Assembly: GCA_024679065.1 (NCBI GenBank)
Contig: JAGIQG010000002.1
Span: 129,828,001-129,892,000, forward strand
Reading direction: 5' to 3'
Length of the DNA stretch: 64,000 bases
Source of the DNA: Sphyrna mokarran
Taxonomy: Eukaryota
Below the pieces are notes generated by a model. That model ran no database searches. It worked only from the letters and a program-made list of their open reading frames with translations, and was not told the DNA's origin. Made by a program: the position numbers and the translations under genes. Of this stretch, positions 6,446 through 16,352 are shown piece after piece. Within the stretch, counting starts at the first letter, position 1. The number at the start of each line of letters is the position of its first letter.

Positions 6446-6648
6446 ACGATGCAGTTTCAAGGCAGACTGAAGTTTCTCCAGGGACAGAGGAAGAAAACTG
6501 GCTCCGGGGCCAACCTTCCGCCACAACTGGGTTTGTTCTGTATCGCCGTGCCTCTGCTGTTCCCCCCAATCAGCGAACTCAAGCTGAAAGGCTTGCTCCT
6601 CAAGGGCAAACACAGGCTCGACCTCAGCCCTACCACACTCAATGCCAA
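6446..6648 (+). CDS. AHRR: AHRR internal coding exon (end of PAS-A and start of PAS-B; equivalent to AHR exon 7)
   Basis: Pyrimidine tract then aaag acceptor, gtaagt donor at 6649. [67 protein letters not shown](K). 203 nt, phase 0 to 2. Confidence 0.94.
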
Positions 6649-8034
6649 GTAAGTGCCCTATCTCAATTCTCCTGGAATTCTCAGCCTGTGAGGTGATGGA
6701 AGCAGATACAATTGTAACTTTTGAAACATGACCTTGAGAAAGAAAGACTTGCAGGTGCAAGGGAAGTGGGATTATTGGATAGCTTTGCCATGCCTTCTTC
6801 CTTTATTCTTTCATGTGGGTGTTGCTGGCTGGGCGAGTATTTGTTGCCCGTCCCTAATCGCCCTTGAACTGAGTGGTTTGCTCCGCCATTTCAGTTAAGA
6901 GCAATCACATTGCTGTGGATCTGGAGTCACAAGTAGGCCAGACCAATTAACGACAGCAGAATTCCTTCCCTGATGGGACATTAGTGAACCAGATGGGTTT
7001 TTGCAACAACTGGCAATGTTTTCAACATTAGACTTTTAATTCCAGATTTTTGTTTTACTAAATCTTCGATGGTGGGGTTCGAACCCAAGTCACCGGACTA
7101 CCAGTCTAGTGACAATACCACAATTCCTTCCCTGTGCTGCATGATCCTACAAAATGTGGGTCAGTCAAAAAGAAGTGGGAATAAAGAAAGCTCTTGAGAA
7201 CTGGAATGCGTTGAAGAGTTTGAGACTCACATTGCTTCATAGACTTGGCTCACTAGTGTCTTGTAGAGAAGAAATGCCTTCGTCCATACCAGCCTGGGCA
7301 GCTCTTTGACTTCGTCTATCAACAGCATTGGTTTGCGAAGCAGACTTAATGGGCTAAATGGGCTACTTCTGCTCCTACGTCCTATGGAGTTTGTTATGTT
7401 GTAACATTTGAGCGTAATCAAGAGATTTCGAGTGGAACAAAAGATATTGATTGAGATGGGACCCTTAGTACAGGAGTTTGCAGCCCTTAGCTGTGCTGGA
7501 GCAGTAGCTCCAATCTCTAGATCTTCTCAACAAGGCTTCCAGATCATTCTTTTGAGAGAAGACTCCACCCTCTGGGGTGATCACTCACTCCCGGTCCCCA
7601 TTGGTCCCTCAAGTCAAATGACTGACTTCTGCTGTACTGCCTTAAAGAGACAGACACCACAACAACATACTTCTAACTACCTTCTGGAGTGACACAGCAA
7701 GTTATATGAAATGGCCACTCAGAGCATCTAGAAATGGACATTAAGTGCTACCCTTGCTGATGTTGTCTATCCTGATTACTCTGAGAAGGTGATACAAGGC
7801 TTTCTCCTTGAATTGCTTACAAGTTGACACATCTAAGTGCCTTGTTAGGCTATTTCAAAGGGCAGTTGGTGCAATCATGATGAATGTTATTTTTGTTGAT
7901 CCCTGCTCTTTATTTCCACATTTTTATCTCTTGTCACTAAAAATGTCACTGTCACTAAAAATGGATGGAATTCATGTTTCATTTGTAAACAATATGTCTC
8001 AAAAACCAATGGATGAATTTTAACAAAACATTTT

Positions 8035-8251
8035 TAAGTTTATTAATTATTAATTATTGTTACAAGTATGTTTATATTAACACTGCAAAGGAGTTAAAAT
8101 CCACTAGTTGCTACACTACGGTGCCTGTTTGAGTACAATGGGGGAGAATTTAGCACGGCCAATGCACCAAACCAGCACATCTTTCATACTGTGAGAGGAA
8201 ACTGGAGCACCCAGAGGAAACCCACGCAGACACGGAGAGAATTTGCAGACT

Positions 8252-8288
<37 letters not shown>

Positions 8289-8368
8289 GACCCAAGCTGG
8301 GGAATCGAACTCGGAGTCCCTGGCATTGTGAGGCAGCATTGTTAACTACTGTGACACTGTGCCACCCA
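8035..8368 (-). mobile_element. V-SINE, tail type B, containing a (CA)17 microsatellite
   Basis: Full reverse copy with (CA)17 at 8253-8286. Confidence 0.85.
8253..8286. repeat. (CA)17 microsatellite
   Basis: Read directly. Confidence 0.98.
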
Positions 8369-8839
8369 GTATCTGTGTATCTTGGTATGCAGATAGATAT
8401 GGTCAAAATTGATGAGTTTTTGAAGAAGTTGTGAATCCAGATATGGACTATTAACATTGTGGGGCAGGGCAGAGGGGCATATTGATTTTTTAAAGAATAT
8501 TTATTTAGAATGTTGTTGATTTTTTTTTAGAATGTTGTGGATCATCTCAACTGAGTGTGTATTTGTCACAGCTACAGATGTGAGCAGAGTTTTCAGAACA
8601 GGTTGTTGGATGCGGATGGGCCTGAAGTTTCCTCAGTGTGATAGAAGCTCTGAATACAGAGATTTTCTGATTCAGCCTTATGGTTGCAGAGCATCAGCCA
8701 GACGTTGAAAAACCTCAGAAAGGAATTACATAATCATAAAGATGTTGGGTTAACACAGTGTGACAGAGATATAAGAAAATAGACTATAGAAAATAGGAGC
8801 GCAAGTTATGTCCTCAGTCAAGTTATTTTAAATAGAAGT

Positions 8840-9150
8840 GGGTGGCATGGTGGGACAGTGGTTAGCACTACTGTTTCCAATTGTCAGGGACCTGAGTTCT
8901 ATTCCAGCCTTGGGTCACTGTCTATGCGGAGTTTGCACATTCTCACCATGTCTGCATGAGTTTCTTCTAGGTGCTCCAGTTTCCTCCCACAGTCCCAAAA
9001 TGTGCGGGTTAGGTTGACTGGGGTCATGCTAAATTGCCCCTTAGTATCAGGGAGATTAGCAGGGTAAATATGTGGGGGAAAGGGTGGGATTATTGTCAGA
9101 GCAGGTTCGATGGGCCACATGGCCTCCTTCTGCACTGTAGGGATTCTACG
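8840..9150 (+). mobile_element. V-SINE, tail type A
   Basis: gggtggcatggtgggacagtggttagcac...ggcctccttctgcactgtagggattcta. Confidence 0.85.
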
Positions 9151-13725: not shown

Positions 13726-15087
13726 CGTATGTTTGAAACCAAGACTATAATGAAATCAGGAGCTGAGTGACCCTGGCAAAAGCTGAACTGAGCATCAGTG
13801 AGCAGGTTATTGCTGAGCAATTGCCTTTTTCTCATTTTATTTCTACGTTAATGTGATTTATCACTTATGCCAAACCAAAGCAGAAGCAAATATGTGAATG
13901 CTGGAAAATCTGAAATAAAAGCAGGAAGTTGCTGGAAAGTATTCAGCAGGCCTGACAACATCTGTGGGCAGAGAAAGCATCATTTATGATTCCAAAGTCT
14001 CTATATTTCTCCAAACCTGACCTCTTGCGTATGACCAGTTTTCATTGCTCCATCATCGGCAGCCCTGCCTTCAAACTGCCTCTTCCCCTTTTTTTCCTCC
14101 TTGATGATGTCCCTATAACCTACCTTGCTAACTTTTGTTCGCACCCTCCCCTGGCTCAGCATCAGGTTTATCTGTTTCCATGACATGCATTTGATGCTTT
14201 TAATTAAGTTGCAGTGCTATATAAATGCACTGAGCTTGATCAGAGTTTTTACTTTGTGTGGCATGTAACAGTGTACCTTGTGAACTATTAGCAGCTGAAG
14301 TTCATTGTTCATTCCAGGGGGCAAGTCTCCCAAGGTACTTTGCCCATTAAATCCTGTTTTGGCACTTGGAAGAATGAGGAGCCCAATGAGAGCCGATGTT
14401 TGTAGTGCGCGCAAGTCAAGATTATGTGTGAAGTTTTGGAATTACAATAGAGCTGCACTGAGTTTCATGGAGATTCCAGAACTAATTGCAGTTGGTCCTT
14501 TACTGTACCAAAGCTAGATATCTCCTTCAAAACTTTAGAGACTGTCTTTCTCTGTCCCAGTAAGAGCCAGAGGGCTTGCTAATAGAATGGCTGTACATTT
14601 CCCCTTCCTCTCAGTCTGGTCAGCATCCATGTGCTAATGATCCCTCCTGGCTAAGGGAAGTCAGGAGTCAGATTCATGTTCATGTTGTGCAATAAAGATT
14701 CCAAAGTAGTTGGTAAAGATAAAATATTGCAGATTCTGGAATCTGAAACAGAAAGTGCTGGAGAAACTCGGCAGGTCTGGCAGCATTTGTGGAGAGAGAA
14801 TAGAGCCAATATTTTGAGTCTGGATGACTCTATATCAGAGCACTGGCTCTACTCTCTCCGCATGCACTGTCAAACCTGCTGAGTTTCTCCAGTATTTTCA
14901 GCTTTTATCCCAGAGTTATTGAGTTTCCAGTCAGTACAAATTCCTTTCAGTTTTGTGGAACATAGAAACCGGAAGAGGCCATTCAGCCCTTCAAACCTGC
15001 TTTGCCGTACAGTTAGATCACAGCTGATTCGTAGCTTAATTTCATTGACTTGCTTTAGTTCTGTCAGGTCTCTTATCTGACCAAAAG

Positions 15088-15380
15088 CGGCATAGTTGCA
15101 CAGTGGTTAGCACTGCTGCCTCACAGTGCCAGGATTCAATTCCCAGCTTGGGTCACTGTCTGTGTGGAGTTTGCATGTTCTTCCTGTGTCTATGTGGATT
15201 TTCTCTGGGTGCTCCAGTTTCTTCAGACAATCTGAAAAATATGCTGGTTAGGTGCATTGGCCATGCTAAGTTTTCCCTCAGTGTATCCAAACAGGGGTCA
15301 GAGTGTGGCAACTAGGGGACTTTCACAGTAATTTCTTTGCAATGCTGATGTAAGTCTACTTGTGATAATAAATAAACTTT
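15088..15380 (+). mobile_element. V-SINE, tail type B
   Basis: Full copy ending ataaataaacttt, ~400 bp upstream of the first PAS-B-like exon. Confidence 0.85.
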
Positions 15381-15782
15381 AGCTATTCATCTGGGCTTTG
15401 AAATGTGAAATGATCTTCCCTCAATAGCTTTTTGGGGAGGGTTTTATGGTTCCCGATGTCAGTTTGGACAGTCCAGCACTGATTTTATCCTCATTGGACT
15501 TCCCCACCTGAGGAAATAGTTTCTTTCTATCCATTCTACCAAATCCATTAATCATCCCAAGCCCTTTGCTATGAAGTACTGAGGTGAAATGCCCTTATAC
15601 TTTTATACTCAGTAGAATACAAACTTAACCTCTGCATTCTGTCCTTGTCATTTAATCATTTTATCCCTTAAAGTGCAATGTCCAGAATCTGAACACAATA
15701 TTCCACTACAGTCTAACCTTATATAACCAGAATATAACTTCTCTCCTTTGGTAACTCTGTGATTCCATTTTGTTGCATCCAG

Positions 15783-15886
15783 GGGCAAAGCAGCAGGATG
15801 GTCTGACGCAGAACTGTGGGCAAGGTCGAGTTGCCACTACCTTCGCTTCACAGACATGCTGTACTGCACGGAGAATCAAGTACGAT
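15783..15886 (+). CDS. AHRR: AHRR exon encoding PAS-B-like sequence (equivalent to AHR exon 8)
   Basis: ccag acceptor (15781-15782), gtaagc donor (15887). (K)GKAAGWSDAELWARSSCHYLRFTDMLYCTENQVR(L) aligns by eye with AHR GRIVLGYTEAELCTRGSGYQFIHAADMLYCAESHIRM. 104 nt, phase 2 to 1. Confidence 0.88.
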
Positions 15887-16210
15887 GTAAGCCCCTCCTA
15901 AATCTCTCCATCTCTCTCTCTCTCTTCCTTTTTGAAGATGCTCTTCAAAACTACTCTTTGCCAGGCTTTTGGTCACCTTTCCTCAGTGCTGAATTCCGTT
16001 CAATAACATTTCTGTGCCATGCCGTGGGCTATTTTACCAAGTTGAAAGCTCCACATCGGTGCAGAGTTGTTGTATGTTTGAATCTCTGCTGCACAAATTA
16101 ATAATGTGAAATTTCCCAGTGTGATTATGTGCAGTAAGGCTAAACAGAATAAGACAGATCAAACACTTGTGTCAAACTCTGAGCTCCATGTTTCATGTCC
16201 CTCCATACAG

Positions 16211-16352
16211 TGATGGACGCTGGAGAGAAGGGTCTCACCGTCTTCAGAGTGCTTACAAAGGACGGCCAATGGGTTTGGCTCCAAACTAATGGACATTTGC
16301 CCTACAGAAGCAAGTCGCCAGAATATGTCACTGTGCCAAAAGAGGAACCCAA
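16211..16352 (+). CDS. AHRR: AHRR exon encoding PAS-B-like sequence (equivalent to AHR exon 9)
   Basis: atacag acceptor, gtaagt donor (16353). (L)MDAGEKGLTVFRVLTKDGQWVWLQTNGHLPYRSKSPEYVTVPKEEP(K) aligns with AHR IKTGESGMIVFRLLTKNNRWTWVQSNARLLYKNGRPDYIIVTQRPLT. 142 nt, phase 1 to 2. Confidence 0.9.

What the first reader, a model, noticed from the sequence alone, without database searches (positions are those of the whole stretch)
6580..16352. Shark AHRR retains a recognisable, open AHR-like PAS-B domain
Seen: the end of exon 6446-6648 plus exons 15783-15886 and 16211-16352 splice in frame to [92 protein letters not shown]. Established: AHRR is normally described as lacking a functional ligand-binding PAS-B. 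Compared from memory with human AHR (KHKLDF...DAKG...AEL...DMLYC...GESG..VFRLLTK...W.W.Q.N), the scaffold and intron phases are kept, with only a two-codon shortening. Pocket residues are mixed: the His of KHKLDF and the Cys of DMLYC are kept, while GYQF, SHI and the Gln of VTQ are altered. The AHRR call rests on PAS-A motifs, SUMO sites, lack of a Q-rich tract and adjacency to EXOC3. Inference: this may be an intermediate between AHR and PAS-B-degenerate AHRR, possibly still folding, binding HSP90/AIP, or acting as a ligand-modulated repressor.
Basis: partly seen in the sequence, partly recalled or inferred. Interest (0 to 1): 0.72.

Follow-up and report, generated by a model that had tools for sequence, protein, structure and literature searches.

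The report
Shark AHRR keeps fading PAS-B domain
The shark gene for the dioxin-receptor repressor (AHRR) still encodes the pocket domain that textbooks say this repressor lacks; sturgeon, coelacanth, amphibian and bird versions keep weaker copies, so the domain was lost in steps, and in sharks it likely no longer works as a ligand switch.

Summary
Observation confirmed, interpretation partly. The three exons are real, GT-AG, in frame, and joined in transcript contigs of related sharks. The gene is AHRR (tree 100/100), separate from four AHR paralogs in the same genome. Cartilaginous-fish AHRRs keep a full-length PAS-B (Pfam PAS_11 cut-off passed by 9 of 10, by 0 of 22 bony-vertebrate AHRRs). 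It is not shark-only: an AHR PAS-B profile scores sharks and rays 92-111 bits, sturgeon 90, coelacanth 84, amphibians, birds and turtles 39-63, placentals under 8, teleosts 0 (AHR about 204). The PAS-B tree follows the species tree, so the domain is ancestral to AHRR and was lost in steps. It is still under purifying selection (pN/pS about 0.1) but relaxed: 70-73% shark-ray identity against 91-99% for AHRs. Only 3 of 8 core pocket residues are identical; the R398 switch and the XAP2 phenylalanines are gone; prolines sit in the last two strands. Best reading: a ligand-blind repressor carrying a constrained, decaying PAS-B. One of the two 'missing' codons is shared with invertebrate AHRs and with a further AHR-like paralog clade that may be AHRR's sister. 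Not found in the 10 literature searches run; key reviews could not be read.

The parts
832..967 (+). AHRR coding exon 5 (PAS-A, first half)
   Evidence: tblastn with Mustelus AHRR and splice sites
3746..3873 (+). AHRR coding exon 6 (PAS-A)
6446..6648 (+). AHRR coding exon 7: end of PAS-A, linker (HSP90-lumen segment of AHR), and PAS-B strands A-beta/B-beta from about 6596; His291-equivalent codon at 6611-6613
15783..15886 (+). AHRR coding exon 8, 104 nt: PAS-B helices C-alpha to F-alpha (110 nt in AHR paralogs; one codon longer in most other sharks and rays)
15844..15846 (+). Arg codon at the His326-equivalent position; His in all 10 other cartilaginous-fish AHRRs and in contigs of runs X2, X4, X6
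16211..16352 (+). AHRR coding exon 9, 142 nt: PAS-B strands G-beta, H-beta and a decayed I-beta (Pro at 16336-16338, Lys for Gln383 at 16339-16341)
18288..19509 (+). AHRR last coding exon: repressor tail with three SUMO-type motifs (near 18910, 19033, 19372), no Gln-rich tract; lacks R398, F404 and F406 equivalents
58637..59344 (+). Exon of the downstream neighbour, EXOC3/Sec6 (synteny marker, not part of the gene)
   Evidence: Pfam Sec6 157 bits

Best explanation
This is the shark's AHRR gene, which still encodes the full-length PAS-B region inherited from the AHRR ancestor, and it likely works as an ordinary ligand-independent feedback repressor whose PAS-B is a partly folded, ligand-blind contact surface in slow decay. 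Shown: orthology, splicing, full length, vertical inheritance, purifying but relaxed selection, loss of most pocket and switch residues. Inferred: AHR induces the gene through XRE sites; the protein pairs with ARNT through bHLH and PAS-A and represses through its SUMO-motif tail, as mammalian AHRR does. Predicted: helices C to F and strands G and H fold; strands A and I are uncertain. Inferred and untested: the kept core serves as a docking surface (HSP90 or ARNT PAS-B) or stabilises the protein, a dispensable job, since gar, bowfin and teleost protein models have no trace of it.
For: Orthology: AHRR rows form one branch, 100/100, on bHLH-PAS-A alone, PAS-B alone and both; four intact-looking AHR PAS-B exon sets lie elsewhere in the genome. 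Gradient across 120 AHRRs. Selection: 7 synonymous against 3 replacement changes to run X4 (53 and 190 sites, ratio 0.12, P 0.001) and 6 against 2 to X6 (0.09, P 0.002); shark-ray identity 73% in PAS-B against 59% in the tail and 87-94% in bHLH and PAS-A cores. Relaxation: 67-71 of 96-97 residues shared with four ray AHRRs, against 88-96 of 97 for the four AHR paralogs and their ray counterparts. Pocket: of eight residues that contact all six ligands (PMC11791172, passages) only H291, C333, F351 are identical; F295L, G321S, L353V, S365T, Q383K, plus Y322C and H337Q; C333 is Arg or His in 4 of 4 rays. Switch and XAP2: R398 is kept in 37 of 37 aligned AHRs and in no AHRR aligned; F404 and F406 are gone (roles from PMC9668932 and PMC11791172). 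Model: pLDDT 66-89 for the core, under 50 for residues 1-16 and 96-110; best Foldseek matches are AHR PAS-B. Two TNGCGTG sites lie within 800 bases upstream of exon 1 (background 1.4 per 10 kb).
Against: No binding, folding or repression assay exists for this protein. The model was built on an AHR-rich alignment, for the Mustelus ortholog, with no positive control, so neither the confident core nor the weak A and I strands is proven; the AHRR-only model failed even on PAS-A. Strong short-term constraint after a very long separation from AHR means a real function, which could be binding of an unknown small molecule. HSP90-contact positions (I277, I280-like, Q364, N366, K290) are largely kept, so chaperone handling like AHR's is not excluded. 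Absence in teleosts, gar and bowfin rests on protein models, not on their DNA.
Confidence: 0.62

Rival explanations
1. Shark AHRR is a ligand-modulated repressor: its PAS-B folds completely, is held by HSP90, and binds an endogenous ligand in a reshaped pocket.
For: Full length, pN/pS about 0.1; H291, P297, C333, F351, V381, D329, Y332 kept in the window protein and most HSP90 contacts conservative; PAS fold in the model, Z 9.6, rmsd 3.4 over 94 residues to AHR 8xsb_B.
Against: Pocket positions vary among cartilaginous fish (C333 R/H in 4 of 4 rays, H291 N in chimaera, Q383 K/Q/P), unlike near-invariant AHRs; R398, F404, F406 lost; Pro at 370 in 10 of 10 and at 382 in 9 of 10 elasmobranch rows; F295 and S365 matter for binding in human AHR.
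Confidence: 0.13
2. The region is an unfolded relic that persists only because coding exons decay slowly in sharks and must stay in frame for the tail.
For: Evolves about three times faster than bHLH-PAS-A (tree length 1.38 against 0.45); private changes in this species at His326 and Asp301 and a recent codon loss; Pro in two strands.
Against: About half the rate of the tail (2.57); pN/pS near 0.1; G-beta/H-beta is 70-80% identical to the AHR consensus in cartilaginous fish and 38-47% in amphibians, turtles, crocodilians and birds; middle and last exon sum to a multiple of three (246 nt) and could have been dropped together, as teleost models suggest.
Confidence: 0.2
3. The shark PAS-B was refreshed by gene conversion from an AHR paralog, or the gene is a mis-assigned AHR.
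For: Whole N-terminal half matches human AHR over residues 7-401; an AHR gene lies on the same contig, 48 Mb away.
Against: On PAS-B alone the nine cartilaginous-fish rows join nine bony-vertebrate AHRR remnants at 100/100 and recover the species order; identity to own AHR paralogs is only 38-46%.
Confidence: 0.02

Closest known systems
Mammalian AHRR (structure 5Y7Y; reviews PMC4057711, PMC10570930)
   Same: bHLH and PAS-A orthologous; three SUMO-type motifs in the tail at matching places; no Gln-rich tract; XRE sites upstream; EXOC3 downstream (adjacency in human is recalled).
   Different: Reviews state that AHRR lacks PAS-B. The shark protein keeps the whole region; mammals have lost about 16-18 residues around helices E and F and placentals score under 8 bits.
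Vertebrate AHR, AHR1, AHR2 PAS-B (7ZUB, 8XS6-8XSB)
   Same: Same exon phases and scaffold; 38-46% identity to own paralogs; best structural match of the model.
   Different: 5 of 8 core pocket residues changed; R398, F404, F406 absent; no Gln-rich tail; far faster evolution.
AHR-like 'GW' clade found here (coelacanth XP_014349486.1, lungfish XP_043937370.1, paddlefish XP_041078282.1, bichir XP_039619777.1, sawshark)
   Same: Shares with shark AHRR the one-residue-shorter D-alpha/E-alpha loop, Trp at 310 and mostly Phe at 327; groups with AHRR at 93/88 (LG+G4) and 83/78 (mixture model).
   Different: Keeps the pocket, R398 and mostly F404; broken by stops in this genome. I could not establish whether it equals a named paralog such as AHR3.
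Invertebrate AHR (Drosophila spineless PAS-B, 7VNA)
   Same: Same shorter loop and aromatic residue at 327; described as lacking a known ligand and constitutively active (PMC12808330).
   Different: Its PAS-B is intact with R398 kept, and it is an activator.

Membership tests
AHRR | bHLH-PAS-A groups with AHRR, not AHR | tested here: met
   100/99 on bHLH-PAS-A alone; 100/100 under the mixture model
AHRR | SUMO-type motifs in the C-terminal tail | tested here: met
   Three motifs, as in gorilla AHRR; none in skate AHR or ray AHR1b; K542, K583, K660 in PMC10570930
AHRR | No Gln-rich activation tract | tested here: met
   At most 6 Gln per 40 residues, against 10-21 in three ray or skate AHRs
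AHRR | Next to EXOC3 | tested here: met
   Sec6 exon 39 kb downstream, same strand; human adjacency recalled
AHRR | Lacks a PAS-B domain (textbook definition) | tested here: not met
   PAS_11 above cut-off in 9 of 10 cartilaginous-fish AHRRs; the definition fits mammals and teleosts only
AHRR | Induced by AHR through XREs | tested here: inconclusive
   Two consensus sites within 800 bases of exon 1, in a CpG-richer kilobase; no expression test
AHRR | Represses AHR-ARNT reporters without ligand | not testable with these tools
   Needs a reporter assay
Ligand-binding AHR PAS-B | Eight core pocket residues conserved | tested here: not met
   3 of 8 identical (list from PMC11791172)
Ligand-binding AHR PAS-B | D329-R398 switch, H326 and C-terminal loop (F404, F406, Y414) | tested here: not met
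   D329 and a Tyr near 414 kept; R398, F404, F406 lost; H326 is Arg in this genome
Ligand-binding AHR PAS-B | Complete five-stranded PAS fold | tested here: inconclusive
   Core confident, strands A and I under pLDDT 50; AHR-rich alignment, no control
Ligand-binding AHR PAS-B | HSP90 contact residues | tested here: inconclusive
   Lumen and A, G, H strand positions conservative, I strand changed; lumen residues are also kept in amphibian, turtle and bird AHRRs
Ligand-binding AHR PAS-B | Binds agonists | not testable with these tools
   Needs a binding assay

The most novel reading that the evidence does not exclude
AHRR began as a ligand-binding receptor, sister to a sixth, overlooked AHR paralog that survives in coelacanth, lungfish, paddlefish, bichir and sawshark; cartilaginous-fish AHRR still has a folded PAS-B with a reshaped pocket and is a chaperone-held, ligand-gated repressor, the first such AHRR.
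Probability: 0.12. Interest if true: 0.82.

Novelty: new variant of a known kind. Interest (0 to 1): 0.5.

Why it matters
The statement that AHRR lacks PAS-B comes from the two lineages that lost it most thoroughly, mammals and teleosts. The data give a natural series from a near-complete domain to none, with separate losses, so one can test the order in which a receptor turned into a repressor: switch and co-chaperone contacts first, pocket next, fold last. It tells toxicologists that shark, sturgeon, amphibian and bird AHRRs cannot be assumed to behave like mouse or zebrafish AHRR. The possible sister clade offers a living receptor close to AHRR's ancestor.

Tried and rejected
AlphaFold2 of full-length Mustelus AHRR on 41 AHRR-only rows: mean pLDDT 35, PAS-A also under 50, so uninformative. 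Pfam on single window exons: only exon 9 hits (PAS_3 E 4e-4, below cut-off); the other two give nothing; the window's spliced protein was scored only with my own profile (94.1 bits). Gene conversion and mis-assignment: rejected. Shark-only retention: rejected. Sister relation of AHRR and the GW clade: not starred in any tree, unresolved on bHLH-PAS-A alone. The run search listed no holder on record as RNA; the spliced joints come from relatives, and exon 7 was seen only as loose ends. A codon-model dN/dS across sharks could not be run (no coding DNA of other sharks held). No complex prediction was sent: a pass with ARNT would follow from likeness to solved structures. Literature: 10 searches found no report of a PAS-B in shark AHRR; Hahn 2009 and 2017, Evans 2008, Karchner 2009, Sakurai 2017 and the Xenopus AHRR paper were not held, and they or their alignments may note the remnant. 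Earlier scan findings: none.
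Full report
Observation. With exons at 832-967, 3746-3873 and 18288-19509 and three exons upstream of the window they give a 774-residue frame with a single terminal stop; exon 1 lies at G000:C771:129,657,2xx, so the gene spans about 190 kb. 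Contigs from four runs of three studies, laid at 85% likeness, show all three junctions around the PAS-B exons: 15886 to 16211 as a GT..AG joint in X6, the upstream junction as loose ends in X2 and X6, the downstream one in X1 and X6. The tool only guesses that these runs are RNA, and they are from relatives, but intron-skipping joints indicate transcripts.

Identity of the gene. The last exon finds eight shark and ray proteins of 791-799 residues, most named AHRR, the closest from Mustelus asterias. On bHLH-PAS-A alone the window protein sits inside AHRR (100/99). The genome holds four other AHR genes with canonical PAS-B exons, on C771, C113 (a tandem pair) and C971. The tail has three SUMO-type motifs like gorilla AHRR and no Gln-rich tract. 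A Sec6/EXOC3 exon follows 39 kb downstream. Two TNGCGTG sites lie within 800 bases upstream of exon 1, against 1.4 per 10 kb in the window; the kilobase is CpG-richer, so this is suggestive only.

Is the PAS-B real, and is it shark-specific? Pfam PAS_11 passes its cut-off in 9 of 10 cartilaginous-fish AHRRs and in 0 of 22 bony-vertebrate AHRRs scanned (best: bichir 23.7 bits). A profile from 47 AHR-type PAS-B sequences was run on the window protein and 119 of the 120 best hits (257 hits in all; one fused AHR model left out). Scores in bits: cartilaginous fish 92-111 (10), sturgeon 89.5, coelacanth 83.5, turtles and crocodilian 48-63 (3), birds 39-61 (13), amphibians 40-60 (13), bichir 46, marsupial and platypus 25-38, squamates 14-27 (9), placentals 0-7 (5), gar, bowfin and 56 teleosts 0 or less; training AHRs median 204. 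Amphibians, turtles and birds keep the full spacing; squamates and mammals lack about 11-21 residues at helices E and F. Decay is complementary: elasmobranchs keep strands A-B better (39% identity to AHR consensus against 17-28%) but strand I worse (18% against 47% in sturgeon) (coelacanth and one rodent row were not cut by that script). On PAS-B alone, nine cartilaginous and nine bony AHRR rows form one branch (100/100) that recovers the species order. So the domain is ancestral to AHRR, inherited vertically, and lost in steps, separately in neopterygian fish and in mammals and lizards. The teleost absence rests on protein models.

Selection. Between sharks and rays PAS-B is 73% identical, the tail 59%, bHLH and PAS-A cores 87-94%. 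At the same divergence the four AHR paralogs share 88-96 of 97 PAS-B residues with their ray counterparts, AHRR 67-71 of 96-97. Differences listed against relatives' contigs in exons 8-9 give pN/pS 0.12 (X4: 7 synonymous, 3 replacement; P 0.001) and 0.09 (X6: 6 and 2; P 0.002); the table omits differences near contig ends (8 of 14 listed for X6), so these are rough. The domain is constrained but relaxed.

Function-bearing residues (human numbering from the alignment; counts, where 37 of 43 AHRs were aligned). Of eight residues that contact all six ligands in AHR-ARNT crystals (PMC11791172, passages), the window keeps H291, C333 and F351 and has F295L, G321S, L353V, S365T and Q383K; Y322 is Cys and H337 Gln. 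These sites also vary within cartilaginous fish: C333 is Arg or His in 4 of 4 rays, Q383 is kept in rays, H291 is Asn in the chimaera. The ligand switch uses D329 and R398 and the C-terminal loop (PMC12808330, section read; PMC11791172): D329 is kept, R398 is kept in 37 of 37 AHRs and in no aligned AHRR, and H326 is Arg in this genome only. XAP2 binding needs F404, F406 and Y414 (PMC9668932, passages): the two Phe are gone. HSP90 contacts in the linker and strands A, G and H are conservative, those in strand I are not. Elasmobranchs have Pro at 370 (10 of 10) and mostly at 382.

Structure. A model of the Mustelus domain on 104 mostly AHR rows has mean pLDDT 65.6, 66-89 from helix C to strand H, and under 50 over strand A and strand I. 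Foldseek ranks AHR PAS-B structures first (E 8e-7, TM 0.61); VIA gives Z 9.2-9.8 to many PAS-B domains. The fold is partly borrowed from the alignment and there is no control, so this shows compatibility, not proof. The AHRR-only model failed.

The two-codon shortening. One missing codon (G319) is absent in every AHRR aligned, in invertebrate AHRs and in a group of AHR-like proteins from coelacanth, sawshark, lungfish, paddlefish and bichir, while lamprey and other vertebrate AHRs have it. The second is missing only here and in Mustelus among the elasmobranchs aligned. That AHR-like group ('GW clade', 97-98% bootstrap) keeps the pocket and R398, shares Trp310 and mostly Phe327 with shark AHRR, and is AHRR's sister at 93/88, 94/76 on PAS-B, unresolved on bHLH-PAS-A and 83/78 under a mixture model. 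Its copy in this genome (C993) has stops in two exons. This is a lead, not a result; a preprint (10.1101/2022.07.13.499904, passages) instead joins AHRR with AHR2.

Mechanism. Most likely (0.62): AHR induces the gene; the protein pairs with ARNT by bHLH and PAS-A and represses through its tail, as described for mammalian AHRR (PMC10570930, passages); its PAS-B keeps a folded core but has lost the coupling between ligand, C-terminal loop and XAP2, and persists as a contact or stability surface. Rivals: unfolded relic (0.2), ligand-modulated repressor (0.13), conversion or mis-assignment (0.02).

Novelty. Reviews read in passages say AHRR lacks PAS-B (PMC4057711; PMC10570930). Ten searches found no account of a PAS-B in shark AHRR; the main AHRR evolution papers were not held, and public annotations already carry PAS_3 and PAS_11 marks on these proteins. 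Verdict: a real, apparently under-reported variant of a known gene; the graded loss across jawed vertebrates is the finding, not a shark-only domain. Interest 0.5.

Noticed in passing
G000:C993:55,426,000-55,479,500 (L009-L011): A sixth AHR-family locus, ortholog of the 'GW clade' (coelacanth, lungfish, paddlefish, bichir, sawshark), with stop codons in the bHLH exon and the PAS-A/B exon: a pseudogene here. The clade keeps a ligand-type pocket and may be AHRR's sister.
   Followed up: partly
window 15844-15846 and 6638-6640: Private changes in this genome: Arg for the His326 equivalent (His in relatives' contigs) and Asn for the Asp301 equivalent (the Asn codon is also in run X2); signs of continuing relaxation or polymorphism.
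   Followed up: partly
P0050, P0107, P0068-P0115 (protein models): Mammal and squamate AHRRs lack nearly the same stretch at the end of exon 8, while turtles, crocodilians and birds keep it: possibly the same new splice donor taken twice. Not checked in DNA.
   Followed up: no
G000:C771:81.17-81.30 Mb and 129.66-129.85 Mb: AHR and AHRR lie on the same contig, 48 Mb apart; an AHR2-like and AHR1-like tandem pair lies on C113 and an AHR2-related gene on C971.
   Followed up: partly
P0122 (sawshark AHRR-like, 364 aa): The model ends after exon 7 in unrelated sequence; either an annotation error or loss of the PAS-B exons in that species.
   Followed up: no
window 45502-46875 (-) and 32270-33678: A LINE-type reverse transcriptase frame (Pfam RVT_1, 129 bits) and inverted pieces of a GIY-YIG-bearing, Penelope-like element between AHRR and EXOC3.
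   Followed up: no
window 42790-43400: A tandem array of a unit of about 90 bases, open in several frames.
   Followed up: no
P0009 (crane, 1378 aa): A database model that fuses two tandem AHR genes into one protein.
   Followed up: no
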